From assembly GCA_043228905.1 (NCBI GenBank), contig JBHGNT010000011.1, positions 7,936,001-8,000,000 on the forward strand: DNA of 64,000 nt, written 5' to 3'. Shown piece by piece: positions 2,401-60,859 of this stretch (within the stretch, counting starts at the first letter, position 1; every line of letters begins with the position of its first letter). Origin of the DNA: Azolla caroliniana (lineage: Eukaryota > Plantae > Polypodiophyta). Under the pieces are notes generated by a model. The model made no database searches. It was given only the letters and a program-made list of their open reading frames with translations, and had not been told where the DNA came from. The position numbers were made by a program, and so were the translations under genes.

Positions 2401-3530
2401 TGTCGTGAACATTTTCGGCAATGGTGTGAAAATTGCGAGGAACATACAAAATCGAGTGTGGTTCTTCACATACCATGTGAAACAATAATAGTAAAGATAC
2501 TATTTTAGATTAGTTTAATATCTTGGTACGAAAAGATGGATGTTTTCAAGAGCTTCCGAATGTACTTTACTACATTTGAAACGGACAACTAAATGTCAAG
2601 TTATGTGAATGTGAAGAAAAGAAAAACAAAACTATGACATATCCCACATAGATAGCACAAATCAAGATTCCACATTATATAAGCATAGCCATAACTTATT
2701 ACTTTCTGTCTATGTGTGCAACATAGAATGTTCTTTGGCTGAATTGTGGCTTAACTGCTCGTAATGGTTTTGGAGGACCGGACATCGATGGAACTGGAAC
2801 AGGGACCGGATGGACAACGATGGAACCAGAACCTAACGGGGACAACGACCGAACTGGGACCGACACAAGAACCGAAACTGAAACCGGACCAAACCGGATA
2901 GACCGGATCGTTGGGTCGGATGCGGACCGGATGGACCGGATAAATGGATCGATCGAATAGGTTGATCGCGAGGATTACGGTGTGAAACGAACAAAATCAT
3001 GTAGACTAAAAAACCTAGTAACCTTGCACCTCCAAGATAAGAGGCAGAAAACTTAAAACTAATCCAAGTCATTTCTCTAGAAATGTTTTTTCTATCATTA
3101 TACCTTCACATGTAAATTGTCATATTAGAGCTTAAATGAGTGAAATGGTTAATCATGCATCACGTGTAATGCATGAGCGCCAAATGGCAAACATGCATCA
3201 CATGCATTGTATGCATGTCTTGTACCCTCATATGTATCATATGCATGGTGGCATCTATAAAAGAGTGGATGAAAAAGATCAAAAGGGGGGCTCAATATGT
3301 GATATCACCATCACCACCATCATCAATATAATACTCTCATTTATCTTTTTCTAATTAAACATCTTCGCTCAAGTGTATCAATTTTCTTAATCTTTTCAAG
3401 TGTGACATTGTCTTCCTCGACTCAAACATCCACATCATTGTCTTTTAAGGTCATCTAAGGATCTCCTCAAGTGTCCGAGACCCCGGTGGCCCTGCTCAAG
3501 TAACACATGCACACGAGCATTTTCGCGACA
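2401..3530 (+). mobile_element. 3' LTR of gypsy element A (tRNA-Trp family)
   Basis: Termini TGTCGTGAA...TTCGCGACA; preceded by PPT-like GATGGGGGTGGA (2389-2400); homologous to LTRs at 3972, 34431 and 40083; TATAAAA at 3256. Confidence 0.88.
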
Positions 3531-3971: not shown

Positions 3972-3996
3972 TGCTCGTGAAGATTTTTGGCAATAG

Positions 3997-4230
3997 TGTG
4001 AAAATTGCATGGAATGTACACAATCGAGTGTGGTTCTTCACACACAATATGAAACAATAATAATGAAGATATTATTTTATATCTTGCTACGAAAAGATGG
4101 ATGTCTTCAAGAGTGAAAATTGCATGGAATGTACACAATCGAGTGTGGTTCTTCACACACAATATGAAACAATAATAATGAAGATATTATTTTATATCTT
4201 GCTACGAAAAGATGGATGTCTTCAAGAGCT
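3997..4230 (+). repeat. ~115-bp tandem duplication inside LTR B
   Basis: GTGAAAATTGCATGGAATGTACACAATCG...GGATGTCTTCAAGAG occurs twice in tandem; single copy in LTRs A and E. Confidence 0.85.
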
Positions 4231-5268
4231 TCTGAATGCATTTTATTACATGTGAAATGGACAACTTAGTGTCAAGTTATGTGAGTGTGAAGTTTGAGAA
4301 GAAGAAGAGAAAAACAAAACCGTGAGATATCCCACATAGATAGGACAAATCAGGATCCCACAGTATATAAGCAGAGCCAAAACTTATTACTTTCTATCTA
4401 TGAGTGGAGCACAGAATGTTCTTGGGCTAAACTATGGCTTAATTGCCCGTAATGGTTTTGGGTGACCGAACGACGACAAAACCAGCAACGGAATTGGAGC
4501 CGAAATCGGAACGGCAAACGAAGCCGAACCGGGACTGGCACTAGCACCAAAACTGGACCCCGGATAAATGGATCGATCGGATAGGTTGATCGTGACGATT
4601 TCGGTGTGAAGCGAACAAAATATCTAGACTAAAAAACCTAGTAAAAGTTTGTATACAAAGGGATACAAGCAAGGCTTGAACCTTGCACCTCCAAGATAGG
4701 AGACAATAGACCTACCACTAAGCTAAATCATTTCCTTAGAAATGTTTTTTTCTATCATTATTACTTTTACATGTAAATTCTCATAATAGAGCTTGATTGA
4801 GTGACATGGTTATCATGCATCACATGTAATGCATGGGCGCCAAATTGCAAACATGCATCACATGTAATGCATGGGCGCTAAATTGCAAACATGCATCACA
4901 TGCATTCCATGCATTGTATGCATGCCTTGTACCCTCACATGCGTCATATGCATGGGGGCATCTATAAAAGAGTGGATAAAAAAGATCAAGGGGAGCGATG
5001 TATGAATCAAGATTTTAATAAGAAGAAAATTCATTATCCAATTGATGATATATCTTGTTCTTCAAATCTAATGTCAAGAGTTCAATCTTAATCTCTCTCT
5101 CCATTTTAATCTTTCTCAATCTGTTTCAAAATTGAAATCTTAATCTCAATCTATCTTAAATACTTTCCCACTAAAGCTAGTGCAAACTTCGAATCCTTCT
5201 GGTCCAGGACCCTGGCGGTTTCACCTCACGATCCGCACATAGTGACGGATTTACATGATGTTATTAAG

Positions 5269-5286
5269 TGGTGAACCCGACGTGAA
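5269..5286 (+). promoter_or_regulatory. Primer-binding site complementary to tRNA-Trp 3' end
   Basis: TGGTGAACCCGACGTGAA is the reverse complement of ...TTCACGTCGGGTTCACCA (plant cytosolic tRNA-Trp 3' end, from memory), 8 nt after the LTR. Confidence 0.8.
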
Positions 5287-6961
5287 AGAGGCTGTAGGAA
5301 GGATCAAGTCGACGATCAACCGATACTCGGAGATGGTGTCCTCAAGTAATCAAGCGGGAGAGTTCGAAAGGATGATGCTAATTGTCAAACAAATGATGAG
5401 ATCTTGAGACAACGATTCGAGCGTGGAGAAGGCCGTCGACTGTGTCGTGGAGGGTCAATTTGATGGAAGGAACATTATTAAGTTCCTTGATGCATACAAA
5501 AGGGAGATGAATCAGAGGGACGTGTTTGAAGCACGTCAAATTGAAAGTTTCAAGAAAGTGGTCGCCAACAACGTCCAAAGAGGCGTCGTCGAGCTTCAAG
5601 AAGGGAAGACAACATGGTCCGGGTTCGAGAAAGTGATATTAGCGGAGTTCGCGATGGAAGATTTGTCGAGGATGACTCGACATGCCTTAATGAAGTGGAT
5701 AGAAAAGAAGAATAAGAGGATGAGCGCTTCGAGGGTGTAGGACGAATTTGACTAGATATTTAGTCAAAGAATTGGCGAAGAAGTTTGAGACGATCACACT
5801 AGCGAACATGAATCGTCGGGGCTCGAAAGGAAAAGAACCCTTAAGATGTGTGTGGTGCGATAGCTTGGATCACATGAGAAGGGAGTGCGCGAGCCTTCGA
5901 GAGGCCATCTGACAAAATATCATATAGATGGATGACAACATGATCTGCTCGAGTGAAACTCGAAGACCCCTGCGGGTGAATTTCGGAAGAGGGGGAATGA
6001 AGAAATCTATGGAAGATACTGAGGTGACTCATGTGGATGCGATGCAGTATGCTACATCCACTGGAATTAGAGTTGGAAAAGATAAAAATGAAGTTGCTAG
6101 AACGGGAACAAAGTTTTGGTCTTTTGTTCTCAAGTGTAAGAAGAAGGGCAAAGTTACTTGGGACAATGTAGAGCTTGCGGGCCGAAGTGTACAAAGTATT
6201 ACCGAATGGTCAGATCCGGTAGATGACAACACCATACTCGCGGAAGTGATGTGTGACAACCACGAGGTGTTCGTGGATGAAAAGAGAAAAAGAATGGAAG
6301 GGCAAGATAGCCCATCAAAAAGACATCAAACAAGGAGCACGAAGAAGAAAGAAGATGCAGAAGCAACTCAAGCTTTACGAATGGAGGATGGAGACTCAAG
6401 CCGAAAAGAGGAGTCAAGAAAATGAGTCGAAGAAACGGTACGGCTGTGAAGGTTGGTGTCGAAGACCTCGCTCGGAAGACAAGAAGCCTACCTATAAACT
6501 AAAGTCAGACATAGAACAGACGACAGACTTGACGAAGATTCTCGAGGAACATGTTCTTGATAGCCACGTGACCCTGTCCTTGAAGGAATTGCTCAGCATT
6601 ATGAAGGAGTTCCATGATACTATTGTGGACCTCGTAAAGAGAAAAAGGCAACAGTCGAATGAAGAAGAAGAGAAGCCACTAAAACCAAAACCAAAGGCCA
6701 TAACGATGGCAAGAGACGAAGTCGAGGAAGATATGGTGGACAACCACTATACTCGGCCTCATTGGGCGTAAGCAACGACGGAGATGCCAATAAAGTTGGG
6801 GGAAAGAAAAGAGACAGTTGTAGCATTAATAGACCATGGGTCCGAAATCAACCGTATGTCGACTGAGGTGTACAAGAAGAGAAGATGGCCCATAAATATG
6901 AAACATGGGTGGAAGATCCATCCTGCTATGAAAGCTACCAAAAACTTGTATAGGGCATGTC

Positions 6962-9900
6962 TGTAGAAAGTAGCGTGCGGAAGCAAGTATGAAGACCGAA
7001 CAGAAGGAAGGAAACTCAGGTTCAATGGAGAGCTTAAGCTTACACGGTATACGCAGGAGAGACAGAGAGAGTGAGAGAGAAGACACAAAAAACTATATTC
7101 AACAATAATACTCAATCTTTGTACATAAGACGTGCTCAGTGAGCACTTTTATACAAGTCCTAGAAGGACTGACCGAAGTACTGACAGTACTTCAATGCTC
7201 ATCAAGAGCTCCTACACTAACTCCCAAATATATTCCTCACGGAATATCTTTCCTAACGACCTCCCGGTTTACGCACTCGGCCTAACCGATCGGTCCCAAC
7301 CGATCCGGTCCTCGGCTTCTTCAGCCGATCCGGCCGATGTTGAGCTTGTCTCTCAACACTCCCCCTCAAGCTCAACTCGAGGCTCTTCGAGATCTTCACA
7401 GCGCCGGTTCCTCCTGGCTTCTCGCCTTGCTCGCACTCCTCGACCTGTTCGACTCCGCGCGCTTCGACCCTTCCGGTCGGCTTGTCTGCTCATGCGGCCC
7501 TTATTAGCTCTTCTGTTGTTGCGGTGTTGACGCTTCTCCTGCTGCCTTTTCTTCCGCTTAGGCCTCGGTTGATTCAGCGTATCTGAATCAAACATCTGAA
7601 CCGACTCGGCTACACCCGATCGGTTTTCGCTCTTGTCCCAGTTGGCTATCTCCAACTCGTCTTCGGTCTTCTCGCCCTCGATGGCGTCATCTCCCCTATG
7701 CGTGGTTGGCTTCGGCTCTTTCCTTCGGCTGCTCCCCTTCTGTCCGCTTTCGGACTTTTCCGTGGGTCCGCCCTCAGCTTCTTCAGCCGACTCGGTATCG
7801 CGGCATCCGCTCCTTTCCTGCTGCTTTGCTTGGTCTGTTCTCCCCCTCAAGTTCGGCACGTCAAGGTGAGGCAATCCAAGCGCACCTGAGAATTGCCGCA
7901 ACTTGTCCAGACCAAGAGGCTTTGTGAAGATGTTGGTAGTTTGCCGATCCGTCGGAACATACTGAAGTTCGACTTCACCGGAAAGGACACGCTCACAGAC
8001 GAAATGGTAATGCACCTCAATGTGCTTGGTCCGTGCGTGGAAAACAGGGTTCATCGCGAGCTTGATGCTGCTGAGGTTGTCGCAGTAGATCGTCGTCGGA
8101 TCTGACACCTCCTCTTGCAGGTCCTTAAGTAGCCGCTTCAACCATATGGCTTCGCATGTCGCGACAGCCGCTCCTCGGTACTCAACTTCGGTGCTCGACA
8201 GGGCAACTGTCGGCTGCTTCTTACTGCTCCACGTGATCACGGCACTCCCAAGGGAGAACACATATCCGGACGTGGATCGGCGATCGGCAGCGTTGCCAAC
8301 CCAATCAACATCGGTGTAGCCGACTAACTGCGCGACTGCACCAGTCCGATATAGCAGTCCCCGGTGCTTAGTGCCATTGACATACCGAAGTATGCGTTGC
8401 GCACACTGAAGGTGCTCCTCGGTAGGTCGCGCCATGAACTGACTGATCACTCCGACCGGATAACTAAGGTCGGGTCGGGTGATGGTCAAGTATATGAGGC
8501 TTCCGACAATTAGTCGGAACCTCGTCAGGTCGCATACCTTTCCTGTATCGGGATGAAGCTTGATGGTTCTGTCCAGAGGAGTCGAGACGGACTTACAGTC
8601 AGCCATCCCGAGTTTGAAGAGCATACCCAGCACGTAATGACGTTGGCTGATCAATATGCCTTCGGGGGTACGGATCACTTCGATCCCGAGGAAGTAATGA
8701 AGGTCCCCCAGATCCTTCATGTCGAACGATGCCGCAAGCTGGAGCTTCACGCGGTCGATTTCACCTAGGTCGACGCCAGTGATGACCAAGTCATCAACAT
8801 ATAGTAGAATACTAACCGGTCTGAGTCGACCTTTCCAGATGAACAAGGAAGAGTCCAATTTTGACGTGACGAAGCCCATCCGACGCAGTTGTTGCGTGAT
8901 CTTCGCGTTCCAGGCACGCGGGGCTTGCTTCAGTCCGTAAAGGGACTTCTTCAGTCGGCATATTGCCGAGGAGTTCGTTCCAGAGTGAAATCCGGGGGGT
9001 TGTACCATGTACACCTGTTCCTCAAGGTCACCTTGCAGGAACGCATTCTTTACATCCATTTGATGTAAGTGCCACCCCTTGGCCGCGGCTACTGTGAGCA
9101 AAACACGGACGGTCGTCATTTTCGCGACCGGCGCAAACGTCTCATCGTAGTCGATGCCGTGTTTCTGCGCGTAGCCCTTTGCCACTAGCCGAGCCTTGTA
9201 CCGGTTGACTGAGCCATCGGTGTTGTACTTGACCTTGTACACCCACCTACACCCGATCGGTTTTACCCCTTTTGGTGCATCAACCAGGTCTCAGGTCTCG
9301 TTCTCCGCCAATGCGTGCATCTCTTCCTCCATTGCGGCACGCCAATTCGTGTCTTTAGCCGCTTCTGCATAGCTCTCCGGCTCACGCACTTCCGCTACAC
9401 GGGTCATGTACGCATAATGATGCGCCATGTACTCGTTGTATCCGAACCGCAAAACAGGGTTCTTCTGGCGGGTAGATCGGCGTAATCTCACATTAGCCGA
9501 TGTCGAGGCCTTCTCGGTCGACGCGGTCTTCACCTTTAAAGACCCGTCACCGGTTCCCTCGGAGTCGGACTCGCGTCGGTCTAACTCGTTCCTTTCCGTG
9601 CCGGAATCCGACACCTTTTTCTTCCCTTTCTCTTTGCGCGTAAGCCATCTCCTCGGCTTCCTGCGCGGGGAATGCACGGCGAGTCTCCACTACTCGCCGG
9701 CTCTTCATCAGACCGGTCGTACCGACTCAGTCGTCCAATCAGTCCACTTAACCGGAGTGAAATCGGACTCTCTTCGCGGGTCTCGATTTCGGGCTCATCC
9801 GGAGGCATCTCGGCCTCGCTGACCTCATCGTTAGAGCTCGGATTGGAGTCGAGGTTCGTAGTCGGGGGCAGGTACCAGGACGCGGACTCGTCAAACACAA

Positions 9901-12599
9901 CGTCGCGACTGACACACGCTTGTTTGGTGCGAGGGTTATAGCACTTATAACCCTTCTGCTCGTCCAAGTAACCGACCAAGATGCATTTCTCCGCCTTTGC
10001 ATCCAGCTTCCTCCTTTTCTCCTTCGGTACATGCACATACGCAATGCTACCGAACACCCTCAAGTTCGGCTTCGTTCCGAAATATAGCTCGTGCGCCGAC
10101 ACTTGGTCTCCGATTCGGTTCTGGATGTATACCGCAGTCCTTACTGCCTCGGCCCACTAGAACTTGGGCAAGCTCTTCTCCTCCAGCATTGCCCGTGCCG
10201 CCTCCACAACTGACCGATTCTTTCTCTCGGCCACGCCTTTCTGCTCTGGCGTGTATCTACAACTGAATTCGCGGCGAATTCCCATTTGTTGTAGGTAACC
10301 GTTGAATTGACCGGAAAAGTACTCTTTCCCGCCATCCGACCGCAGGCACTTGATCTTTCGTCCCGTTTCGGTTTCCACGAACCCTTTGAGGTCCCGAAAA
10401 CAGTCGAAGACTTCGCTCTTCCTCTCAATGAGGTAGATCCATGTGTGCCGCGTGTGGTCGTCAATGAAGGAGATGAAATATCGGCTCCCGCCAAGACTAA
10501 CGTTTTGTGTCGGCCCCCACACATCCGAGTGTATAAGGTCGAGCTTGTTCCGGCTCTGGTTTCGCTCGTTGGGGAAAGGAAGTCGGTGTTGCTTCCCGAG
10601 CTGGCAGGCTTCACAAATTTGTGCCTTTCGGCCACTAAATTTGGGCAATCCGAACACTACCCGTTTCGATTGCAGATCTTGAAGCCGCTGGTAGTTGACG
10701 TGGCCTATCCGTTTGTGCCACAAGTCGATGTCCAAATCGGTCTTTTGTCCCTTCGCGAACATTGCGGTGCTGCTGTCAGTGGAGTCGAGGATGAACATCC
10801 TCCCGTCTCTGCGCCCTTGCGCAATCACACAACCTTCTTCCTCAATGAAGCACCCGAGGTCTGTAAACCGAACCTCCATCCCTTGGTCGACGATCTGTCC
10901 GACCGAGACCAAGTTTTTCGTGATTGGTGGAACGTGCAACACGTTCATGAGTTTCCCTTTCTGCCCAACGTGGCTAAGGGGAACTTCTCCGACATTCGCG
11001 ATCGGATGCGGAGTGTCGTCTCCTGTTGCGACTATTCCAGGTTGTATCGGTTTTTCAAGGTACGAGAACCACTCCTTATGGCTCGTCATGTGGTTTGACG
11101 CGCCGGAGTCTACGTACCACACCTCGTCCGATCTCGGGGTGGTCTGCTTCATTGAGTTTGCTTCGTGTCTCGTCACGAAGGCAGTCCCTTCTCCGGCTCT
11201 CCCGGAGTCTTCGGCGTAGTGCGATCGCTGCCGATTTCCCTTGTCGGTATGTCTAGAGCCGTTCCCGAAACCAGTTCTCTCCGAATCGGCGCGCTTCTTC
11301 CAACACTCACTTTCCTTGTGGCCTTTCTTGCCACAGTACCAGCACTCCGCGATGGACTTCCCTTGCTGGTTCTCATCGTTTCAACTCCCCCTGTTTCCGG
11401 AGGGTCCGGAGTTGCTGTCGGCATCACTTCGGTGCCTTCTTTCTTGATCTCGTCGGCCGCCTCCATTGCGTGCCGACTCGCCTCGTCCTCCACGTCCACG
11501 GGGCCTATCTCCCTCCGTGTACAACATTCTGTTGTCGGTGTGCGTGCTTGTAGACGCACCCACGTGGTTCTCCTCTACCAGGAGCATCGACTATAAGTCG
11601 AAAAAGGACGGCGTATTCTCCCGGGTACACACAGCCGTTCGGAATGCTCCGAACTTCGACGCCAAACCTCCGAGACAGATCTGGACCATCTCGCTCTCCT
11701 CGATGTTCACCTCTATGGAGGCGAGGGAGTCGCAAATATCCTTGATCTTCGAGGTATAGTCCGCCACCGACAAGTCGCGTTGTTGTAGGTTGCTCAACTC
11801 CTGTCGGAGCTGAAGCTTCCTGGTTGTGGTGCTCGCGGCGAAAATCTTCTTCAGATTTTCCCACGCACCCTTCGGCGTCTTTGCATCCCGAACATAGCTC
11901 AATAGCTGTTCACCCACACACGACGCGAAGCAGTATAATACCCTGCTCGCCGATAGCTCCCACGACGGGAAGTCTCTGTGTGTCGATTCGGGTGCCGCGT
12001 CATTAGCTCCTTTGACATAACTCCAGTAGCCGTGCCCGAGCAGGTACTGGTGCATCTTGTAGGACCAAGACGCGTAGTTGGTTCTGTCGAGCTTCTCTGT
12101 TGGAAGCGAGCTCGCCATGCCTCTATCCATTGTTCTTCTTGTTCTTCTTCGTCAAGCTATGTCGGCTGCAGAGAGGTTCTCAACCCTCGCGCTCTGATAC
12201 CATGTAGAAAGTAGCGTGCGGAAGCAAGTATGAAGACCGAACAGAAGGAAGGAAACTCAGGTTCAATGGAGAGCTTAAGCTTACACGGTATACGCAGGAG
12301 AGACAGAGAGAGTGAGAGAGAAGACACAAAAAACTATATTCAACAATAATACTCAATCTCTGTACATAAGACGTGCTCAGTGAGCACTTTTATACAAGTC
12401 CTAGAAGGACTGACCGAAGTACTGACAGTACTTCAATGCTCATCAAGAGCTCCTACACTAACTCCCAAATATATTCCTCACGGAATATCTTTCCTAACGA
12501 CCTCCCGGTTTACGCACTCGGCCTAACCGATCGGTCCCAACCGATCCGGTCCTCGGCTTCTTCAGCCGATCCGGCCGATGTTGAGCTTGTCTCTCAACA
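6962..12599 (-). mobile_element. Full-length young Ty1/copia element (397-bp LTRs 6962-7358 and 12203-12599) with disrupted coding region
   Basis: Perfect TSD ATGTC; tRNA-iMet PBS 12191-12202; PPT 7359-7375; gag (12130 onward), CCHC, PR (VDSGAS), integrase (HSDVWG, SDGGKE, ERKN), RT (YVDD), RNase H; one LTR mismatch seen. Confidence 0.97.
7353..9242 (-). CDS. Copia RT-RNase H portion of pol with a ~160-aa C-terminal extension
   Basis: ORF track 629 aa: [43 protein letters not shown], then acidic and Arg-rich tail ending ELEGEC. Confidence 0.85.
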   Translation of the reverse strand: MYKVKYNTDGSVNRYKARLVAKGYAQKHGIDYDETFAPVAKMTTVRVLLTVAAAKGWHLHQMDVKNAFLQGDLEEQVYMVQPPGFHSGTNSSAICRLKKSLYGLKQAPRAWNAKITQQLRRMGFVTSKLDSSLFIWKGRLRPVSILLYVDDLVITGVDLGEIDRVKLQLAASFDMKDLGDLHYFLGIEVIRTPEGILISQRHYVLGMLFKLGMADCKSVSTPLDRTIKLHPDTGKVCDLTRFRLIVGSLIYLTITRPDLSYPVGVISQFMARPTEEHLQCAQRILRYVNGTKHRGLLYRTGAVAQLVGYTDVDWVGNAADRRSTSGYVFSLGSAVITWSSKKQPTVALSSTEVEYRGAAVATCEAIWLKRLLKDLQEEVSDPTTIYCDNLSSIKLAMNPVFHARTKHIEVHYHFVCERVLSGEVELQYVPTDRQTTNIFTKPLGLDKLRQFSGALGLPHLDVPNLRGRTDQAKQQERSGCRDTESAEEAEGGPTEKSESGQKGSSRRKEPKPTTHRGDDAIEGEKTEDELEIANWDKSENRSGVAESVQMFDSDTLNQPRPKRKKRQQEKRQHRNNRRANKGRMSRQADRKGRSARSRTGRGVRARREARRNRRCEDLEEPRVELEGEC

Positions 12600-13807
12600 A
12601 TGTCCTAACATCGCCATCATGATTGGCGATGTCGAGATAGATCAACATTTTTTTGTTCAAGACTCAGTGTCCCATCCCATCATTCCTGGGCAACCATACA
12701 TAACATCATCATGGACGGAAACCAAAGTGTTCGACAATGGTGCAACATTTGCTTGAGTAAGGAGTCTTGATGGGAAGAAGGCCGTACAATTCTTGATTGT
12801 ACGTGCCAACCATGAAAGGAATCAGGATTGACTCGGAGAAGATGCTTCGAATTTTTATAGCAGAATATTGAAGCATGGGGCACAAATAGTCCAAGCAATC
12901 ACAACTCCCCACAAGAAAGTAGAGCGCATGGATTGCAAGGAGAAGCAACATGTGTCACACCTAGTTCCACATATAAACTAGTGCTACCCAACAAAAAGGA
13001 TAAGCATTGGATGCAAGACTTCGAGAAGATGCTGAAAGAAGAAAACATAATAGAAGAAGAAGAATTCATGACTCATATTATGGAAGAAGCCTCATTTAAC
13101 GACACCATTGGTGAAATCGAGGAAGTCGTGGACTTGAGCTATCTTCACGATCAACATGTGATTTCGGTTAACTCCGTCAACATGTACGCTATCATCGATG
13201 AATACCATCGAAGCATCTTGATGGAGGAAGCTAAAGTCAACACAAAATATAAAACGGTGGAAAGAAAGATCAAGCTAGTTGCGGTTTCACTACCAAAAGA
13301 TAGCTGGCAAAAGATGAAGGAAGTCACTAATGATCCAAGCGTAAGGGATGCAAAGGCAATAGGTCATGTCTTCACCGAAGAGACGAAAAGAAAGCTACGA
13401 GTTGGAAAGGAGGATTTCCACCTCCCTGAAGAGGAGCGAATGTTTTGCAACATGCTTGAGAGACATGGGAAGGCTTTCACATTTTTCCCACAAGAAATCG
13501 GATGTGCTGATCCAAGGATGATAGAACCGATGGTGATCTTCACGGTGCCGCATGTGTCTTGGAAATTGAAACCGATACCGGTTCCGAGAGCACACCTACT
13601 GAAGTTGATCGAACTCTTAAAGGAAAGGGTGGATATGGGAATTTTGGAACCGTCGAATCCTCCCTATTCTAATAGGTGGTTCACGGTGCCAAAGAAGAAT
13701 GGATTATTGCGATTTATCCAAGATCTTCAAACCGTCAACAAGGTGACAATTCGGAATGATGGAATTGGTCCGAGTGTGGATGAATTTGCCGAAGCGTTTG
13801 CGGATCA

Positions 13808-14297: not shown

Positions 14298-15905
14298 TGT
14301 CGTGAAAATCCGTCATTATGTGTTGATCGTGAGGCGGAACCGTCGGGGTTATGGATGGGAAGAAAATAGGGCTCACACACACAACACAAGGAAGGCTTAC
14401 ACAAACAAGGCACGAGTATTCGAACGTGTTTGCGAAAAGGAGAGGTGTGCATGGGCAAGCCGGAATCAACGCCTAGTCACAAGGTGAACGAATGCACGTG
14501 AGGAAGGCTTACACACGGACACACAAGGAAAAGGCTTAGACACACGAGAGACAAAGTTTCGAATGCCTTTGTGAAAAGAGATGTGCATGGGCAAGCCCGA
14601 ACGCTCCCTTGTTACAAGACACGCGAACACACAAGGAAAAGCCTTACTTACACACACAAGAGACAGAGTTTTGAATGCCTTTGTGAAAAGAGAGGTGCAT
14701 GGGCAAGCCTGAACGCTCCCTTGTTACAAGACACGCGAACACACAAGCAAGGTTTACACACGGGAGACACAATTTCGAACGCCTTAGTGAAAGCAGAGAT
14801 GCATGGGCAAGCCCAAAATGATCCCTTGCCACAAGTCGCACGAACACACAAGCAAGGTTTACACACGGGAGACACAATTTCGAACGCCTTTATGAAAGGA
14901 GAGGTGCATGGGCAAGCCCAAACACTCCCTTGCCACAAGTCGCACGAACACACAAGTAAGATTTACACTAACACGCAAGACACGTAAGTTTGAATGCCTT
15001 TGTGAAAGGAGAGGTGCATGGGCAAGCCCAAAACGCTCCCTTGTCACAAGACACAAAAACAAATAAGCACAAATGACGATAACATATATAAGACAGGTAG
15101 GTTTGAATGCCTTTGTGAAAGGAGAGGTGCATGGGCAAGCCCAAAACGCTCCCTTGTCACAAGACACACAAACAAATAAGCACAAATGACGATAACAAAC
15201 AAGCACAATCAAGATTTACACATAAGACAAGTAGATAAAAGAAAACATTAGTTTATATCAATAGAATAGAGTCTTTTATAATATAAGAATCATGTTTCAA
15301 TGGGTTGGATGCGAATATGAAGGATTGTTTATAAAGGAATGGGGGAAGAGAGGTGGAGGAAAGAAGAGAGTGGAGTATAGAAGGAGTTTCTTTGTTGATG
15401 ATGCCTCTCAATGTTGTTGATCCTTCTTCTTCCACTTTCCAATTGAGTAGAGCTTCCACGTTCCTTCTCCCTCACCCCCTTCTTCACTAGAATAGGCTCT
15501 TATTTATAGGTTTAGGATTGCTTGCATTTTTCCCCTAAAAAAAAGCTTGTCTATATGAGTCGACTTTTCTTTTCCTCACTATTTCTGTTTTCTAGCCTCA
15601 AATTTCACATGCAAGATATTCTTGGCAAGCTCTTTAGGTTAGCTTTCTTATGCATCTTTTCTTTTCTAATTTGGACATTTGACGAGGAAATTATGAGCTT
15701 TCTACTCGACCTTGCTCCTCATATCCACGGCTAGCTTTTCTTTTCCCATCTTTTTCTCTAATTTTGTCTACTTTCAAAAACCTCTTGTAACTTTTTATCC
15801 TTTCATTTATTACTATAGTTGACTTAAGAAAATTAGTTTATTTGGACCACTATTTTATTCTCTTTTGAGGGTGGTTTCACACTATGTGTCGAAAACATCA
15901 CGACA
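14298..15905 (-). mobile_element. Solo LTR (~1.6 kb) related to the tRNA-Trp gypsy family
   Basis: Minus-strand start TGTCGTGATGTTTTCGACACATAGTGTGAAA and end ...GACGGATTTTCACGACA match the family termini; flanks CCGG / CTGG; copia gag-PR reading is contiguous across the insert. Confidence 0.82.
14400..15200. repeat. Minisatellite, ~7 units of ~104-136 bp, inside the solo LTR
   Basis: Core GAATGCCTTTGTGAAAGGAGAGGTGCATGGGCAAGCCC near 14449, 14585, 14697, 14800, 14905, 15015 and 15129. Confidence 0.9.
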
Positions 15906-33272: not shown

Positions 33273-33292
33273 CAGGATGGTTATAAAGGAGG

Positions 33293-33335
<43 letters not shown>

Positions 33336-34430
33336 AATCAAACTGTCAGAACCAAGGATAAAAGATAGAGTGATGGAAGAAGGATAGAGAAGAATGGATG
33401 TATAAGATAGAGAAAGAAAGAGAATGGATACAAGATATGTAATGAGAGCTAAAGACTGGTGTTGATTCGAATTGATTTGAGAATACATGTATGCGCTTAT
33501 TTATAGGTTCCTATAGAATAGCTTAGAGATTTCTAGAATGTTCTAGACCTAGAATGCTCTAGGACATTCTAGAACATTCTAGAATAATCTAGAGTTTTTA
33601 CGATAATCAATGTAATACAAGAAGTAGCTTTTATTGTTTCATATAATAATAAGCTATCTTAATGGTTGAGGTTTTCAAGTATGAATTACAAGGTTCGAGG
33701 TTCAAGTCCGGGTGACGCCATAATGGTCATGTGTTCATGACAATACTTCTCTGTCATAGTACTGTTCCTAACAGTTTGAACCGATTTTCTCCTTCCTTCT
33801 CTTCCTTTATCTTCTTAATTCCCACTCCCTTCATACTAATATCTTATTCCTCTTTTCTCTCATATTATGGCCATTGTTAGCGCTCAAGAATATCAATATG
33901 TTTTTTCGGAGTTGCAATGCTTGAAAGAGAAGCTTCTCGCATTGGAACAAGAAAATCAATGACTGTTGGGGGAGCTTCAACAAATATCCTTAGAGAAGCA
34001 GCAAACGCAACAACATGGGGAACTAGCGTTACACGTGCAACAACACGAAGGAACCATACTCGTGATGCAACAACAAGGACCTAGTATGCAAGGGGTTCAT
34101 AAAGAACCCAAGATTGGCCTTCCCATGAAATTCGATGCAACACAATCACAGTTTAGAGGATTTCTTAATCAAGTACGATTAGTCATTCAAATGCATACTT
34201 CCCGATATCCCACCGATGCATCATGAGTGGGTTTAGTAGGCACGTTGTTAAGTGGCTCAACTTTGGCATGGTTCGCTCTCGTTGTTAGAAAAGGAATCTA
34301 CTTTACTAAACAATTTTGAAGAGTTTTTAAGTGAGTTTAAAGCCTGTTTTAGAGATACTGATAGCATAAGGACAACAATCAACAAAATCCGACGATTACA
34401 TCAAGGTAATCGTCCAGCCTCCGCATACGC

Positions 34431-37400
34431 TGTCGTGAAGATTTTCGGCGATAGTGTGTAAATTGTGAGGAACATACAAAATCGAGTGTGGTTCTTCTCA
34501 CAAGATATGAAACAATAATAGTGAAGATACTATTCTAAATAAGTTTAATATCTTGGTACTAAAAGATGGAGGTTTTCAAGAGCTTTCTAATGCACTTTAC
34601 TACATAAGAAACGGACAAATAAGTGTCAAGTTATGTGGGTATAAACATTGCAAAGAAGAAGAGAAAAACAAAATTGTGAGATATCCCACATAGACAAGAC
34701 AAATAAGGATCCCAGAGTATATAAGAAGACCAAAATCTCATATTATATCTATGTGTTTGGAGCATAGAAAGATTGAGTTGTATGACTTGATGAGTGGATG
34801 CAGCCAGCCAAGTTCATTGGTTTTGGACAAATCCGAACGGATCCAGACCAGCAGACAGAAGGCGACGGAACCAGAACCGGATCAGGCTACAGACTAGACG
34901 GATGCGGATCGGATGGACCGGACGGGTAGATTTAGTGTAATATGCACTTAAACATTTGTAAAAACAAGACTAAAAATATTTGGAGGTCAACTGAATTTCG
35001 GGAGAGGGGGAATGAAAAAACCCATGGAAGATGTTAAGGCGACTGATGTGGATGCGATGCACTATGCTGCATTAGCCAAAATAAGAGTCAGGAAAGACAA
35101 AATTGAAGTTGCTAGACCATGAGCAAAGTTGTGGTCTACCGTTCTCGAGTATGAGAACAAGGGAAAGGTCACTTCGAACAAGGTCAAGCTTGCAGACCAA
35201 AGTGTGTAAAGCATAACTGGATGGTCGGATCCTGTGGATGACAACACCATACTCGTGGAAGTGATGTGTGACAACCACAAGGTGTTCGTGGATGAAAAGA
35301 GAAAAAGAATGGAAGGGTAAGGCAACCCATCAAAAAGACATGAAGGAAGGAGCACGAAAAAGAAAGAAGATGCAGAAACGAGTCGAGCTTTACAAACGGA
35401 GGGAGACTCAAGTCGAAAAGGGGAGTCGAGCAAACGAGTCGAGGAAACAGTTCGGCCCGTGAAGGTTGGTGTCAAAGACCCCACTTGGAAGACAAGAATT
35501 ATGCCTACCTATAAGCTAAGATCGAACATAGAGCAAATGACAGATCTGAAGAAGATTCTCGAGGAACGTGTTCTCGATAGCCACGTGACCTTGTCCTTGA
35601 GGGAATTGCTCGGCATTACGAAGGAGTTCCATGATACGATCGTGGACCTTGCGAAGAGAAAAAGGCAATAGTCGGACGAGGAAGAAGAAAAGCCGTTAAA
35701 AGCAAAAACAAATGTCATAACGATGGCAAGGGACGAAGTCGATGAAGATTTGGTGGACAGCCACTATACTCGACCTCATTGGGCACGAGTGACAATGGAG
35801 ACGCCGGTGAAGATCGGGGAGAAGAAAGAGACCATGGTAGCCTTAATCGACCATCGCTCGGAGATCAACCTCATGTTGACTGAGTTCTACAAAAAAGGAA
35901 GATGGCCAATTAACACAAACCACGGATGGAAGATTCGAGCGGCAACAAAAACCACAGAGGACTTGTACGGAGCTTGTCCAAATGTTAAAGTCACGATTCG
36001 GGATGTGAAGATGGATCAACACTTCTTCGTGCAAGAATTGGCTTCGCATCCTGTCATCCTAGGACAACCGTATATCACATCATCTTGGATGGAGACCAAG
36101 GTGTTCGATAATGGAGCAGCCTTCGCACGGATCAAGAGTCTTGACAACCAAAGATCTGTTCAATTCCTAACGGTGTGGGCTAATCATGAAAGAAATCGAG
36201 ATACCCTTCGAGGCGACTCCTCAGATTTTTAGAGTGGACTATTGAAGCTTGGGGCACAAATAGTCCTAGCAATCACAAGTCCCCACAAGAAATTGAAGCG
36301 CGTGGATTGCAAGGAGAAGCAACATGTGTCACACCTAGTGGCGCATGTAAACTAGTACTACCCAACAAGGACAAGCATTGGATACAAGACTTCGAGAAGA
36401 TGCTGAAAGAAGAAAACATAATCAAAGAAGAAGAATTCGTGACTTGTATTATGGAACAGGCCTCATTTAACGACACCATTGGCGAAATCGAGGAAGTCGT
36501 GGACTTAAGCTATCTTCACGATCAACACATGATTTCGATTTACTTCGTCAACATGTACGCTATAATTGATGAATATCATCGAGGCATCTTGATGGAGGAA
36601 GTTGGAGTCAACACAAAATATAAAACGGTGGATAGAAAGATGAAGCCAGTTGCAATTCCGCTACCAAAAGATAGTTGGCAAAAAATGAAGGAAGTCGCTA
36701 ATGATCCAAGCCTAAGGGATCCAAAGACAATAGGTCATGTCTTCACCAAAGAGACGAAAAGAAAGCTAGGAGTTGGGAAGGAGGATTTCCTCCTCCCTAA
36801 AGAGGAGCGAATGTTCCGTGGAATGCTTGAAAGACATGGGAAGGCTTTTGCATTTTTCCCACAAGAAATCGGATGTGCTGATCCAAGGATGATAGAACCA
36901 ATGGTGATCTTCACGGTGCCGCACCTACCTTGGAATTTGAAACCGAAACCGGTTCCGAGAGCACACCTACCGAAGTTGATCGAGCTCTTAAAGGAGAAGG
37001 TGGATCTGGGAATTTTGGAACCATCGAATGCTCCCTATTCTAATAGGTGGTTCACGGTGTCGAAGAAGAATGATCATTGCGATTCATCCAAGATCTTCAA
37101 CCCGTCAACAAGGTGACAATTTGGAATGTTGGAATCGGTCCAAGTGTGGATGAATTTGCCGAAGCGTTTGTGGGCTAGTCTATCTACTCCATTGGCGATC
37201 TCTACTCTGGATACAATCAATTCCAGTTGGTGGTCGACAATCGTCACATTACAACTATGAGGACTCCGATCGGGCTTGTGCGGATGTGTACCTTACCTCA
37301 AGGTGCAACGAACTCGTTGGCTCATATGGTGAATGCCATGAACAAGGTCTTGAAGGATTGCATCCCGGGCATCACGATGCCATTCTTGGATGATATTCCA

Positions 37401-40400
37401 ATAAAAGGATGTTCGGATGAGGACAAGGATGAATCGAAAGATAAGGAAGGGTGTAGAAAGTTCGTCGTGGATCATAGGAAAGATTGCGAGAAGGTGCTCC
37501 AAAGACTCGAAGATGCAAATTTGACATTTTCAGGAGAAAATTCTGCATTTGGGCAACCAGAGATCTTGGTGGTAGGCCACTTGTGTGGAGCATACGGCCA
37601 GAAGCCTTCGCCATCCAAGGTGAACGTGATCCAGGACATGAAAGAAGAATGCCTAACCCAAATGGAGGTTTGAAGGTTCCTTCGAGCATGCGCGTTTTAT
37701 CATATCTAGATTCTGCACTACGCTCATGTCGCCGGGCCATTATATGGATTGCTAAAGAAAAGAATGAAGTTCGAATGGTGAGACGAGCATACAAACGCGA
37801 CGCGAAGATTAAAGAAACTACTTCTTGAAGCCCCAACACTAAGGAAGGCTGACTATACCGAAGGGAAGCCGATTTATGTGACTCTAGATACGAGCCCAAC
37901 TGGAATTGGGTGGGTCATTAACCAAGAAGGAGAAGATAATGTGTGGTATGCCATCTGGTTAGAAGCAAAGGTTCTCAGGGAGCGACAACAAAGATACGCC
38001 CAAGTCAAGCGGGAACTTTGGGGTATTGTGTCTGCAATGAAGATGGACAAAGACTACCTGATCGGGTCGGAAGTGATAATTGAAACAGATTGTCTCCCAA
38101 TCCTCGGGATGATCTCAGGATGTGCGACACCAGATCTAGCTATGCTAAGGTGGATCGCCTATATCAAGTCTTTAAACCCAGAGATCCGCCATATTGCAGG
38201 AAAGAAGAACGTCATGGTTGACGCGTTGTCGAGGGCAAGATTTGAGAATGAAAGTGACATGTTTTCGGAAGATGAAGACGTCACCCTCGACTTCTTCAAG
38301 ATGGCTCGACTATTGGCGGAAGACAAGGACACGCTAACCCTCTACGCCTTCAACGAGGACGAGGACGAAGGAGAGTGGTTAGTGATCGGCAGATTCTTAA
38401 GAACAATGACGGTGGATGTTTCGTTGACGAAAGAGGAGGCTCTACGAATATGGAAGAAAGCTTACCAATACTTCCTCAAGGGAGGATCCCTCTGGTGACA
38501 CCCAAAAAGAAGGACAAGAATGCCACGTTGAGTGGTGGTGAAGAAAGAAGAGCAAGTGACGCTGATGACCGAATTCCACGAGAGTCCTTGGGCGGGTTAT
38601 AGAGGATCATGGGCGACGTTCGAAAAGTTGAAGGAAAAGTACTGGTGGCCAAGCATGTACAAAGATGTACTCCATTTCGTGTCCACATGCGAAACTTGCC
38701 AAGTACATTCGAACATACGTCATCGTGATGAGTTACGGTCAACATACCCGCTCACCATACACTTCAAATGGATGGTGGATCTGGTCTCGACAATGGTAGT
38801 GGGATAAATGAAGTATTTAGTACTAGCAAGAGAAGACCTGACAAATCAAGTGGAAGGACGAGCCTTGGCAAATAAGACGACGTCAGCTGTTTGGAAATTT
38901 CTACTCGAAGAGGTTGTCTACCGATACGGATGTGTCGGAAAGATAGTGATTGATCGAGGGGAGTTGGATGCACGCGAAGCAATAGAGCTCTTCGATCAAC
39001 TAGGCGTGAAGCTCTCCCTCACAACTACCTACAATCCAGAAACGAATGGGAAGATCAAGTGAGGGCATGGACCAATCGTCAAAGCAATTGTACGACCATG
39101 CAACGGTCGAGTCGGGAACTAGCCACGACTATTGCCCTATCCCTTGTGGGCCGATAGAACTACACACAGTTCAATGACAGGGTATATGCCAACAGAGCTT
39201 ATGTATGGACAGAAGCCGGTAATGCCCATCGAAAGGACGATCGCCTCATGGGTAGCGATACCATGGGAGAACGAGATGAGTCGAGAAGAATTATTAGCGC
39301 CACGGATAAGGCAAGTTGAAAGGAGACCTGAAGATCTAGAAAAAGCATGAAAGATGATGGAGGTAGCTTGAGTGAAGAACAAAATTTGGTTCGACAAGAT
39401 GCATCGACTGTGTCCCAAGAAGATTGAAGAAGGAGATTGGGTATTGGACTACGATAGCAGCCTTGACAATCAACACATGACAACAAGGAAGTTCGCAAGA
39501 AGATGGTTCGGACCGTATGTGGTGACAAGTGCCAACGACAATGCCACATACCACCTTGCGGAGCTAGACGGATCAAGGTTGGCCGTGCCCATTGCAGGCA
39601 AAAGAGCTACATTCGGGACTCGAAGACGCCGAAGGATGCTTGGGGAAATTTGAAAAACATTTTCGTCGCAAGCACCACAGCCAGAAAGCTCCAACCCATG
39701 CAAGAGTTGAGCAATGTTCGACAACGAGATATGTATATGGCTGATTACACCTCCAAGCTCAAGGACATTTGCGACTCTCTCACCTCCGTCGATGTAAACC
39801 TCGAGGAGGACGAAATGGTGTAGGTCTGCCTTGGAGGCTTATCGTCGAAATTTGGAGCTTTCCGAACTACTGTCTATACAAGGGAGAATAAAGATTTTCA
39901 AGAAAAGACGAGACGAGGATCCTGACCTCGACCACCTCGACGATGAAGATAGTAGGACTGAGCCTACAGACTTGAGTTATGTGAACAAGGACATGGAGGA
40001 ATTTGATTGATCATCATAGCCGAAATCTCACACTCTCTCCTCTTGGCACATGCCGAAGGACATGCGGTTTGGTGGGGGTGGATGTCGTGAATATTTTCGG
40101 CGATAGTGTGTAAATTGGTTTTGGACTAATCTGGACGGAACCGGTGACCAGATGGCAACGAAACCGGATGGCGACCGGACAGCTACGGAACCGGATCGGG
40201 AAGCAGACTGGACGGAACCGGCTTGGGTTGCGGACCGGAACTGGAATGACTTGACAAATGGATGTAGCCAAGTTCATTGGTTTTGGACAAATATGGACGG
40301 AACCGGACTGACGGACCGACGGAAGGCGACGGTACCAGATTGGGATGCAGACCAGACGAAACCAACTCGGGTTGTGGACCGAAACCGGGTCGGAATGAGG

Positions 40401-41119
40401 GCCAGAAGGAACCAGATGACATGTGGACCCGGGCCGGATCGAACGGATTGGACAGGATGGGACGGATGTGGATCGGATGGACCGGACGAATAGATTTATC
40501 GCAATGCACGATGTCTTGAAGTTTTCCAGTGTGAAACGAACAAAATCATCTAGTTCTTTGGAGGTCAAGTGAAGGTGTAATCTGCACTTAAACATTTGTA
40601 AAAACAAGACTAAAAAGCCTAGTAAAAAGAAAATTTGTATACAAAGGGGTGCAAGTAAGAATTTGAACCTTGCACCTCCAAGTTGAAAGTCAATAGGCTT
40701 ATCACTAAGCCAAGTCATATCTGCAAAAGTTTTACTTTGATCATTTTACATGAAAATTCTCATACATGAGAGCTTAGATGATGACATGGCAAACATGCAT
40801 TTTGTGCATTACGTACATGTCTTGCACCCTCACATGCACCATATGCATGGGGGCATCTATAAAACAGTGGAGGAATAAAGCAGGAGAAACTAATGAAAAA
40901 TTTGGGAAAAATAAGAAACTTGTTATGCTATTGTTGATGTATCTTGTCTCTCAAATCTAAAGTTAAGCATTTAATCTCTTTCTCCATATCAATCTCTCTC
41001 TATTTCAATCTATCTTAAATACTTTCTTGGTAAAGCTAGTGCAAACTTTGAATCCTTCCGGTCCAAAACCCCGGTGATTCCGCCTCACGATCCGCACGTA
41101 GTGACGGATCTTCACGACA
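34431..41119 (+). mobile_element. Gypsy element E (tRNA-Trp family): truncated 5' LTR 34431-~34990, gag C-term, PR, RT (FLDD), RH, INT, 3' LTR 40083-41119
   Basis: TGTCGTGAA...TTCACGACA; TSD ACGC/ATGC restores host gag PASAYAANF; LPQGATNS..PFLDD; IVIDRGEL; WFGPY; no chromodomain. Confidence 0.93.
39607..39889 (+). other. Captured copia gag fragment inside the integrase tail of E
   Basis: YIRDSKTPKDAWGNLKNIFVAST..KLKDICDSL..CLGGLSSKFGAFRT; no LTR or TSD. Confidence 0.85.
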
Positions 41120-44100
41120 ATGCTGCAAATTTTCGCCTACTCGCCTCCAAAATCCCCTGGGATGACCAAGCACTTATGGAGCAATTTCGTTATGGTCTAC
41201 ATAACAATGTTAAGGATTTACTCTTGACCTTCCCCGAAGAACCAAAGTCATTGACAGAAGCAATTCGTTGCGCGGTGAGATGCGAAAACCGTCTTTTCGA
41301 ATGACATTCGGAACATCAGTTCCAGATGCCAGGGCAAGATCAGAGCCCACCTACACCTCAGTGGTAGCAAAAACTTTTCCAAGGGTGTCATATAATGCAA
41401 AAACTTTAGTGAATACTCCAACTCCGATGGAAATTGACACTACACATCGTCGCGGTCCATTATCGGAAGAAGAAAAGCAGCGACACCGAGCAAATTGACT
41501 ATGTCTTTATTGAGGTGGACCAGGGCATATTGCAGTGAATTGTCTCCATAGGCCAAGAAGACAGGTGAACCAAATAGTTGCTAGTTCTAATTGTACTAAA
41601 CCTAAGTCTATTTCAGTAGGAATATCCGATAGTCCTAATAGTACTAATAGCCCAAATCTCTCGAACAAATTTGATGTCCTTAGTTAGTTAGAAGAAGAGT
41701 TAATCGCCTAAGTCCAACCAAAATAGGAGTCATTTGGTTGGACAGCCCTAGATCTGTGCAACCCATTAGTGGTTTCATTCTCTCCAAGCAAGTTAGCAAT
41801 GTGTTCTTAGCCCACGTAACAGTTAGTACTAAAAGTACCTCTCTAGTACATGTCTCAACACTCCTAGATTCTAGAGCTAATTCTTGCTTCATGGATAGGA
41901 ATTTTGCCAAAGTTCATTAGATATCCCTAAGAAAATTCCCATGTCCAGCCTCTGTAGTAGTCATTGATGGTCGTCCCATTGCTTTCAGAAATATCATAGA
42001 AGAGTCGGAGCCCGTTAATATTTTCCTAGATAATTTTTTGTGTGTAGTATCCTTTAATATAATTAGTATCCTAGAACATCCCATTGTTTTGGGATTACCA
42101 TGGTTCGAATTACATAACCCAGTTATAGATTAGAGAACAAGGGAAATCCGGCATCGACAAACCCGAGGATCTACTCATAAGATTGCAACCATTTCGCTAC
42201 ATCAGTTGCGTGAGGAAGGACACAAGGAAGAAATGTTTCTCTTCGCAGTATCAGTAAAACCCTCCAACACCACTAAAGAGGAGTCCATCGTTCAACTTCC
42301 AGAGAAGTATCGTCATTATGCCAATGTGTTCGATAAAGAAAAAGCCAATACGCTTCCTCACCATCGCCCGTATGATTGCCCCATCGATTTACAACCGAGA
42401 AAAGAGCCACCATGGGGATCGACTAGGAGACACCATTCGCACCAGATATGGGCACTTCAAGTATACGGTCATGTCATTCGGCCTCACTAATGCACTAACA
42501 GTCTTCCAGCACATGGCAAATGATATATTCCGAGATCTCTTGGATGTTTGTTTGATAATCTATTTGGATGATCTACCAGTTTATTCGAAGACCCAAGAAG
42601 AGCATGATTCTCATGTACTGTTAGTACTAAAACGACTTCGAGAACATGGTCTTTATGCAAAGCTGGAATAATGTAGTTTCGGGTGCAACCAGGTAGAATT
42701 TATGCACTATATCATTTCCTCGGAAGGCATCTCCATGGATCCAGCTAAGGTCAAAACAGGGGTAGAGTGGCAGACCCTGCGTTCGTTGCGAGATGTGCAA
42801 TGCTTTTTAGGCTTGCCAATTGCTACCACAAGTTTATATAGTATTACTCAAAGCTTGTTCTGCCTCTCACACAACTCACCAGGAAGGCACAATCGTTCGT
42901 TTGGTCTAAATAAGTAGACATGGCTTTTGAGAATCTTAAGAAGGCATTTACATCAGCTCCTATTCTTGCTCATGTTGATCCGGAAAAACCATTCATCATC
43001 GAAGCAGACACGTCGGATTTCGCGTTGGGTAGCATTCTGTCACAACAAGGCGATGATGAAAAGCTTCATCCTGTGGCTTTCCACTCACACAAGTTTGACG
43101 TCGCCGAAATCAACTATGAAATTCATGGTAAGGAGCTATTCGCAATAGTGGGCTCTTTTACACAATGGATGCATTTTCTAGAGGGGTCTTCTCATCAAGT
43201 CACCGTATTCAGTGATCACAAAAACCTTGCCTACTTTCAAAATGCTCATGTGTTAAATCGATGTCAAGCTTGGTGGGCCCAATTCCTCACTCGTTTCGAC
43301 TTCAAAATTACATATTGTCCGGGGAAGCAACAAGGGAAGGTAGATGCATTATCACGATGCTCGTATCTAGCACCGCGTCTTGGCGAGCCAGCTTTCGATA
43401 ACCAAAAGTAAGTAATCCTGGGACCAGCATGACTGCAAGCAACACAGGTCTTCGGTATGCCCTTGGATTCCCACGTTATCGATACCATACGTGAGGACTT
43501 GAAGATAGATGCTTTCGCCCAAGCCATTCTAGCACAAATTGATCCCTCTCAAGCATCTTGTTCACAGTCGCAACAACCAAGTACGGACTATCGACAATTT
43601 GAATGTCATGATGGATTACTATTCTTTAAGAAACTCTTGTATGTTCCTAATGGTTCTTGTCATCTTCGAGTAGTCCAAAACTGTCATCACACATATACAG
43701 CTAGGCATTTTGGTAGTACTAAAACATTAGATTTAGTACAACGATCATTCTGGTGGCCCCATATGCGACAATTTGTCGAAGGTTTTGTTCGGACTTGAAA
43801 TTCATCTCGAAATTCTAGAAGCACCTCTTTAAAATGCTCAAGGTCACTTGTAACCTCTCCTCCCGCCACCACCCGCTACCACCCGCAAACAGACGGCCAA
43901 GCAGAACGAACAAATCAAACGTTGGAGCAGTATCTTCAGTGCTTTCTAAGCTATCATCAAGATAACTAGGCGGATATTCTCCACTTTGCTAAATTTGTGT
44001 ATAATAACTCTGTCCACTCATCGACAAAGGTTACACCATTTTATGCTTATACGGGTTGTCACCCACGGTGGTGTGTATTTGAAACCCTTGAGTTACCCAC

Positions 44101-54952: not shown

Positions 54953-60859
<5,907 letters not shown>

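What the first reader, a model, noticed from the sequence alone, without database searches (positions are those of the whole stretch)
34427..41123. tRNA-Trp gypsy family makes 4-bp TSDs centred on CpG
Seen: E is flanked by ACGC/ATGC, and the host reading frame is restored with a 4-bp duplication. Solo LTR 14298-15905 is flanked by CCGG/CTGG, and LTR A is followed by ACGT. All fit NCGN, and the mismatches are C>T at the CpG. The other LTR elements here with both ends show 5-bp TSDs, the usual plant length. Inference: an integrase with a 4-bp stagger and CpG preference, possibly a chromodomain-free route into methylated TE DNA. Only two complete cases and one half case.
Basis: partly seen in the sequence, partly recalled or inferred. 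Interest (0 to 1): 0.72.

Follow-up and report, generated by a model that had tools for sequence, protein, structure and literature searches.

The report
Fern Phygy retrotransposon inserting at CpG
This family of fern jumping genes lands on a CG pair of letters almost without exception and duplicates four bases there, the habit already published for the moss 'Phygy' group to which it likely belongs; its copies sit in repeat DNA no more often than two other families do.

Summary
E (34431-41119) has ACGC/ATGC flanks; uninterrupted relatives of its host carry one 4-mer there, mostly ACGC. All 66 of 66 elements with both ends have a central CG on at least one side, and all 170 of 170 sampled junctions read CG or its decay products TG/CA (background CG 5.4%; copia 0/31, chromovirus 3/32). 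Neumann 2019 reports this for Phygy (4 bp, NCGN, tRNA-Trp, no chromodomain), and a 2026 paper lists Phygy in ferns; the host here is a fern. The family meets every structural Phygy feature tested; monophyly with the reference set could not be tested. The proposed 'route into methylated TE DNA' gets no support: flank CpG density and nesting in repeats (81% vs 79%) equal the controls. Small additions: the rule is near-obligate and reads VCGB; mismatches also arise at the CAG/CTG contexts made by the LTR ends; the primer site lies 8 nt (sister families 3-5 nt) from the LTR, so a long tail is likely trimmed; the integrase has an acidic residue at a target-contact position. My look-ups found no earlier scan note of this.

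The parts
34431..41119 (+). Element E: decayed Phygy-type non-chromovirus Ty3/gypsy retrotransposon nested in a chromovirus pol
   Evidence: termini and flanks; 87% DNA identity to full-length family member L098 over 4.6 kb; RT and RNase H Pfam hits
34427..34430 (+). left TSD copy ACGC (original target)
   Evidence: ACGC in 9 of 19 uninterrupted host relatives
41120..41123 (+). right TSD copy ATGC (C>T at the CpG)
   Evidence: ATGC in 0 of 19 host relatives
34431..34990 (+). 5' part of the 5' LTR; its 3' half, the PBS and about 1 kb of gag are deleted
   Evidence: 89-91% identity to family LTRs; internal match resumes at position 2052 of L098's element
34992..39606 (+). gag remnant and pol (RT-RNase H-integrase), broken by a frameshift near 37071 and 12 stops in 37074-39665
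39607..39884 (.). about 280-bp copia-derived insertion in the integrase tail
   Evidence: gap in the match to L098; reverse match to 11614-11900 and 24695-24881
40066..40082 (+). polypurine tract abutting the 3' LTR
   Evidence: the same tract is the commonest sequence before the 3' LTR among 32 full elements
40083..41119 (+). 3' LTR (1037 bp) with a deletion near its 5' end
14298..15905 (-). solo LTR of a sister family (same PPT, same tRNA-Trp PBS 8 nt from the LTR); TSD CCGG/CTGG; sits in a copia gag
2401..3530 (+). LTR A: 3' LTR of a related family, preceded by the PPT and followed by ACGT (3531-3534)
3975..13803 (+). Element B: truncated member of the lineage, interrupted by copia 6962-12599
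5261..5286 (+). 8-nt spacer (5261-5268) and 18-nt tRNA-Trp primer-binding site (5269-5286) of element B
   Evidence: complement of the 3' end plus CCA of the genome's own tRNA-Trp genes

Best explanation
E is a broken copy of a fern Ty3/gypsy retrotransposon family without chromodomain, likely of the Phygy lineage, that inserts at a CpG and duplicates the four bases centred on it. Shown: 4-bp duplication, CG at the centre, T avoided at position 1 and A at position 4 (VCGB), no preference outside the four bases, a tRNA-Trp primer site 8 nt from the LTR, a PPT next to the 3' LTR. Inferred mechanism: tRNA-Trp primes reverse transcription, the cDNA carries the 8-nt spacer beyond the terminal CA, and integrase likely trims it; a foamy-virus-like intasome with a 4-bp stagger likely kinks the target at the central pyrimidine-purine step and reads the C and G bases directly, since TA, TG and CA steps are not used. 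The choice acts on the dinucleotide, not on the region. After insertion the two TSD copies decay by deamination of methylated C at the CpG and at the CAG and CTG contexts created by the LTR ends (inferred from the direction of the changes).
For: Genome-wide: LTR right end 1436 matches, 425 followed by the PBS, 765 by NCG, 925 by NYR, only 34 by NCGA. Sample chosen without regard to TSD: 150 of 170 junctions CG, 12 CA, 8 TG, background CG 5.4%. 66 of 66 two-ended elements have CG on at least one side and none has the same non-CG pair on both; 43 of 45 mismatches are C/T or G/A transitions, and all 9 at position 1 are left G, right A. Controls 0 of 31 and 3 of 32. PBS; spacer 8 nt in 97 of 100 listed. 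No Chromo, RNase_H or RVT_3 hit in three stop-free pol frames, while the window's chromovirus scores Chromo at 1e-14. Median length 7,863 bp of 32. Phygy: 4 bp 100% NCGN, tRNA-Trp 81%, 7,656-9,968 bp, no extra domain (PMC6317226). Central YR and avoidance of T/A at the TSD edges are general for 4-bp intasomes (PMC4422553).
Against: No REXdb Phygy sequence was available, so monophyly is untested; the tree is FastTree only and has no Athila/Tat/Selgy rows. TatI also has 4 bp and tRNA-Trp. Five of 66 pairs do not fit simple decay (3 with more than 2 mismatches, 2 G/T changes). Only surviving insertions are seen. End trimming by integrase and base readout are not shown. TSD CpGs are discordant in 8 of 29 pairs vs 14.6% of LTR CpGs (p=0.06), a weak hint that targets were methylated.
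Confidence: 0.85

Rival explanations
1. The integrase prefers methylated CpG and so steers the element into silenced TE DNA without a chromodomain.
For: CpG is near-obligate; 81% of flanks are repeats; TSD CpG decay is about twice the LTR rate, p=0.06; a gene region in the window has 1.0% CpG vs 4.7% in the TE nest, so a CpG rule alone lowers the chance of hitting such introns.
Against: Control families nest in repeats equally (50 of 63 vs 129 of 159), flank CpG density is the same (p=0.62), and 28 of 159 targets lie in flanks under 2% CpG vs 14 of 63 for controls. The controls are young copies, the repeat library was only the 1.6 Mb fetched here, and selection may level real differences.
Confidence: 0.12
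2. The family is a separate fern lineage, or TatI-like, that shares the 4-bp/tRNA-Trp traits with Phygy by convergence.
For: Phygy was defined from Physcomitrella alone; no named Physcomitrium protein appears among the 120 best hits of either search; TatI has 4 bp and tRNA-Trp.
Against: No archaeal-type RNase H, which TatI has in 100%; NCGN is stated to be unique to Phygy among plant lineages; close relatives occur in the liverwort Riccia (about 50-68%) and the fern Ceratopteris (58%); Phygy is reported from a liverwort and from ferns.
Confidence: 0.1
3. The pattern is an artefact: 5-bp TSDs with misplaced LTR ends, or CG-rich surroundings.
For: In the window alone both complete cases carry a mismatch.
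Against: Empty-site relatives fix a 4-bp duplication; 0 of 51 family-1 pairs match at 5 bp with 2 or fewer mismatches; background CG is 5.4%.
Confidence: 0.01

Closest known systems
Phygy (non-chromovirus Ty3/gypsy; Neumann et al. 2019, PMC6317226: passages, section 9 and supplementary table MOESM5 read)
   Same: 4-bp TSD with NCGN, tRNA-Trp PBS, about 7.9 kb, no chromodomain, no aRH, coding region filling the interior
   Different: Host is a fern, not Physcomitrium (Phygy in ferns is already mentioned in PMC13477047, one passage read, without TSD data in that passage). Here the rule is measured as near-obligate VCGB and two overlapping frames are seen (the paper gives 'ND'). LTR-PBS spacer length is not given in what I read.
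TatI (same paper, table)
   Same: 4-bp TSD, tRNA-Trp
   Different: TatI has aRH in 100% and no NCGN rule is stated; this family has no aRH
Selgy (same paper, table)
   Same: non-chromovirus, 4-bp TSD, overlapping frames
   Different: tRNA-Ala, about 5 kb, no motif stated
Fungal Ylt1-like Ty3/gypsy (Novikova 2010, PMC2864245, passages)
   Same: nearest named non-plant relatives are fungal (Phenoliferia, Smittium; 38-41% in RT-RH) and share DUF4100
   Different: the Ylt1 label is my inference, as no Ylt1 sequence was in the tree; their TSDs were not examined
Drosophila errantiviruses with a CGCG target (ZAM subgroup; PMC5408687, passages)
   Same: Ty3/gypsy integrases with a palindromic, GC-rich target preference
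   Different: another clade; the CGCG 4-mer has GC at its centre, while here CG is central and the outer bases vary
Prototype foamy virus intasome (PMC4422553, abstract and sections 6 and 14)
   Same: 4-bp stagger, central YR step, T and A disfavoured at the TSD edges; best PDB hit of the integrase (E 6e-22)
   Different: the retroviral YR bias is modest (63% over random), here CG is near-absolute; an acidic residue aligns near Ala188, where retroviruses have small neutral residues

Membership tests
Phygy | 4-bp TSD | tested here: met
   17 exact and 8 one-mismatch of 29 full elements; none fits 5 bp; empty site
Phygy | NCGN target motif | tested here: met
   66 of 66 pairs, 170 of 170 junctions CG/CA/TG, 765 NCG genome-wide
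Phygy | tRNA-Trp PBS | tested here: met
   18-nt complement of the genome's tRNA-Trp; 425 LTR ends followed by it; deleted in E itself
Phygy | no chromodomain, no aRH, no extra ORF | tested here: met
   Pfam on three stop-free pol frames; in 32 elements the long frames listed fall in the gag and pol span (sense strand only)
Phygy | length 7.7-10 kb | tested here: met
   median 7,863 bp, range 4,587-8,964, n=32; fetches were capped at 10 kb, so longer copies were missed
Phygy | monophyly with REXdb Phygy in RT-RH-INT trees (the primary criterion) | not testable with these tools
   no reference sequence held; the tree shows a 100-support clade with Riccia elements, far from the window's chromovirus
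TatI | archaeal-type RNase H | tested here: not met
   no RNase_H or RVT_3 hit at E 0.01
Selgy | tRNA-Ala PBS, about 5 kb | tested here: not met
   tRNA-Trp, 7.9 kb
Chromovirus (Tcn1) | chromodomain, 5-bp TSD | tested here: not met

The most novel reading that the evidence does not exclude
The integrase of this lineage is a chromodomain-free reader of methylated CpG that also trims an unusually long, variable (3-8 nt) tail from its cDNA end; it would be a natural plant integrase that targets a DNA methylation mark directly.
Probability: 0.12. Interest if true: 0.72.

Novelty: new member of a known kind. Interest (0 to 1): 0.27.

Why it matters
The 4-bp NCGN habit is already in the reference classification, so the finding mainly extends it to a fern, some 400 million years from mosses (divergence time recalled), and shows it is near-absolute rather than a bias. 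That makes this integrase a good subject for asking how a retroviral-type integrase gains strict base readout, and each TSD pair a small record of cytosine decay in CG and CHG contexts. It would matter much more if methylated CpG were preferred, for which I found no support.

Tried and rejected
5-bp or 6-bp TSD: rejected. CG-rich surroundings as the cause: rejected by background and two control families. Regional steering into TE DNA: not seen. Moss host: my first guess, rejected by the phytochrome (best hit Pilularia 89%, other ferns 85-86%, mosses 78% or less). Horizontal transfer from liverworts: considered for 65-68% RT-RH identity to Riccia, dropped because Ceratopteris also has a relative and sampling is thin. 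Unprocessed cDNA ends preserved in the genome: 14 ends with the spacer but no exact PBS were fetched; most read as altered or truncated PBS regions and one as a head-to-head junction, none a clear unprocessed insertion. First tRNA pattern found nothing; the corrected one found 63. The maximum-likelihood tree did not finish; FastTree was used. The structure prediction of the integrase never returned, so there is no model and no fold search. Sequencing runs: no RNA holder listed. The ESM Atlas gave only generic RT/RNase H clusters. Cluster look-ups named only two fungal and six arthropod proteins. Paper searches gave nothing on TSDs in ferns or on LTR-PBS spacer length; PMC5014426 and PMC6786969 (passages) gave nothing on the TSD. 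Five look-ups of earlier scan notes showed none on this family.

Full report
Observation. Element E runs from 34431 to 41119 between inverted ends TGTCGTGAA and TTCACGACA, with ACGC before and ATGC after. It lies in the pol of a chromovirus. Each flank aligns to the intact paralog with a shared 4 bp at 32711-32714. That distant paralog itself reads ATGC at the site, so I fetched the 19 closest uninterrupted relatives of the host (19 of the 20 loci; the other is the window). They hold ACGC 9, ACGT 6, ACAC 3 and ACGA 1 times, never ATGC. The target was ACGC and the right copy changed C>T. The solo LTR 14298-15905 has CCGG/CTGG and LTR A is followed by ACGT; four copia or chromovirus elements in the window have 5-bp TSDs. 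E is decayed: half of the 5' LTR, the PBS and about 1 kb of gag are gone, pol has a frameshift and 12 stops, and a 280-bp copia piece sits in the integrase tail.

Genome-wide test. The 19-nt right end of the family LTR occurs 1436 times. At least 425 are 5' LTRs followed by the PBS, which leaves at most 1011 host junctions. Of all ends, 765 are followed by NCG (76% of 1011), 925 by NYR (91%) and only 34 by NCGA. The denominator is too high, since 14 of 14 further ends checked kept the internal spacer. For a sample chosen without regard to the TSD I used loci L001-L060, L091-L110 and L141-L220. I left out L061-L090 (selected for NCG), ends with more than one mismatch to the terminus, PBS-side and PPT-side ends, and near-duplicate flanks. 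Of 170 junctions 150 read CG, 12 CA and 8 TG at positions 2-3; background CG is 5.4%. Of 90 stretches fetched around 5' LTRs, 32 held a full element; one recombinant and two duplicates were dropped. Of the 29 left, 17 match exactly at 4 bp and 8 with one mismatch, against 11% exact for cross-paired flanks; none matches at 5 bp with two or fewer mismatches. Adding 22 solo LTRs and 15 solo LTRs of the sister family, 66 of 66 pairs have CG on at least one side and none has the same non-CG pair on both. Copia flanks have CG at positions 2-3 in 0 of 31, chromovirus flanks in 3 of 32.

Refinements. T at position 1 and A at position 4 are rare (2% and 5% in the copies where the LTR end does not alter their context; NCGA 4.4% against 29-38% expected), so the motif is VCGB; no preference shows outside the four bases. 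Of 45 mismatches in pairs with at most two, 21 are at the CpG, 9 are left G to right A at position 1 (the CAG made by the LTR's CA), and 5 are left T, right C at position 4 (the CTG made by the LTR's TG). Reading these as decay of methylated CHG is inference. Three pairs with more than two mismatches and two G/T changes do not fit and may be recombinants.

What it is. The family has about 1-kb LTRs (median pair identity 98%), a median length of 7,863 bp, a PPT touching the 3' LTR and two overlapping frames. Pol holds RT, RNase H and integrase, with no chromodomain or archaeal RNase H. The PBS is the 18-nt complement of the genome's own tRNA-Trp (6 of 6 fetched loci called Trp by ARAGORN). The host is a fern, nearest Salviniales by one phytochrome. 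Nearest named relatives are in Riccia and Ceratopteris, then fungi; a FastTree of 84 RT-RH rows puts E with the Riccia elements at support 100, far from the window's chromovirus. Neumann et al. 2019 (PMC6317226; passages, section 9, supplementary table) state that Phygy alone among plant lineages prefers NCGN and list 186 elements, 4 bp 100%, tRNA-Trp 81%, 7,656-9,968 bp, no extra domain. Jedlicka 2019 (PMC6911290, passages) finds 4 bp commonest for Phygy and Phygy nested in Tcn1, as E is nested in a chromovirus. Phygy is reported from a liverwort (PMC12885004, passages) and from ferns (PMC13477047, one passage). A search for NCGN with retrotransposon gave three papers, of which by title only Neumann bears on it. 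Monophyly with the reference set could not be tested.

How it likely works. tRNA-Trp primes the first strand. The PBS is 8 nt from the LTR in 97 of 100 listed copies; across sister families the spacer is 8 nt in 49, 4 in 28, 5 in 18, 3 in 3, 7 in 1 and 10 in 1 of the first 100 of 809 matches (counted by hand). By the standard scheme the cDNA carries this tail, yet it is absent from host junctions, so it is likely trimmed at the CA; retroviruses remove two or three bases (PMC5329712, search listing). One search found no paper on such spacers, which is weak evidence of novelty. Retroviral integrases with a 4-bp stagger favour a flexible central YR step and avoid T and A at the TSD edges (PMC4422553, abstract and sections 6 and 14). 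That accounts for V and B and for a YR centre but not for the exclusion of TA, TG and CA, so direct base readout is inferred. The integrase's best solved relative is foamy virus integrase. Behind the second catalytic Asp, 183 of 207 close hits (a redundant set) read DRGE or DRGD and the D-to-E spacing is 34 in all 192 scored, where retroviruses have a small neutral residue that sets the flank preference. A one-residue gap at this spot makes the register unsure, and the short spacing also occurs in distant relatives; this is a lead only. The structure job did not return.

Route into methylated TE DNA. Host flanks of 159 family junctions have the same CpG density as 63 control flanks (p=0.62) and are repeats as often (129 of 159 vs 50 of 63, p=0.85). 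The test is rough: surviving insertions only, young control copies, a 1.6-Mb repeat library, and both flanks of full elements counted. TSD CpGs decay somewhat faster than LTR CpGs (8 of 29 vs 198 of 1352, p=0.06). A preference for methylated CpG is neither shown nor excluded.

Verdict. Observation confirmed; mechanism half supported; a fern member of a known kind with a published trait. Interest 0.27.

Noticed in passing
G000:C4:8.68-9.87 Mb (L202, L204, L207, L211; L208, L212; L209, L213): The same insertions with the same flanks recur every 40-100 kb, pointing to a large tandem or segmental array.
   Followed up: partly
L095:1591-1610: The 5' LTR is followed by the first 8 bases of the 3' LTR's host flank and then the PBS, like a conversion tract that ran past the LTR end (or an assembly artefact).
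   Followed up: no
L194 / L318 (G000:C3:16.77 Mb): An LTR end with its 8-nt spacer is joined head-to-head to the PBS side of a sister-family LTR.
   Followed up: partly
L102 / L147 (G000:C1:14.96 Mb): One LTR has a PPT before it and a PBS after it: two elements in tandem sharing an LTR.
   Followed up: no
G000:C8:17.80-17.82 Mb, C16:4.99-5.11 Mb, C5:10.10-10.11 Mb: Matches to the tRNA-Trp 3' end lie in tandem clusters (63 matches in all); only 6 loci were confirmed as tRNA genes.
   Followed up: partly
window 54955-60860 (+): Likely HINT/HIT-family host gene (last exon HIT E 0.0013, under the cut-off) with long CpG-poor introns, 1.0% CpG vs 4.7% in the TE nest.
   Followed up: partly
window 53391-53897 (-): DUF659 frame (E 8e-19), likely a DNA-transposon remnant.
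   Followed up: no
window 28066-33742 (-): Young chromovirus with a chromodomain, 99% identical LTRs and a perfect ATACT TSD.
   Followed up: partly
window 14370-15200: Tandem repeats inside the sister-family LTR; this LTR varies from 1.4 to 2.1 kb between copies.
   Followed up: no
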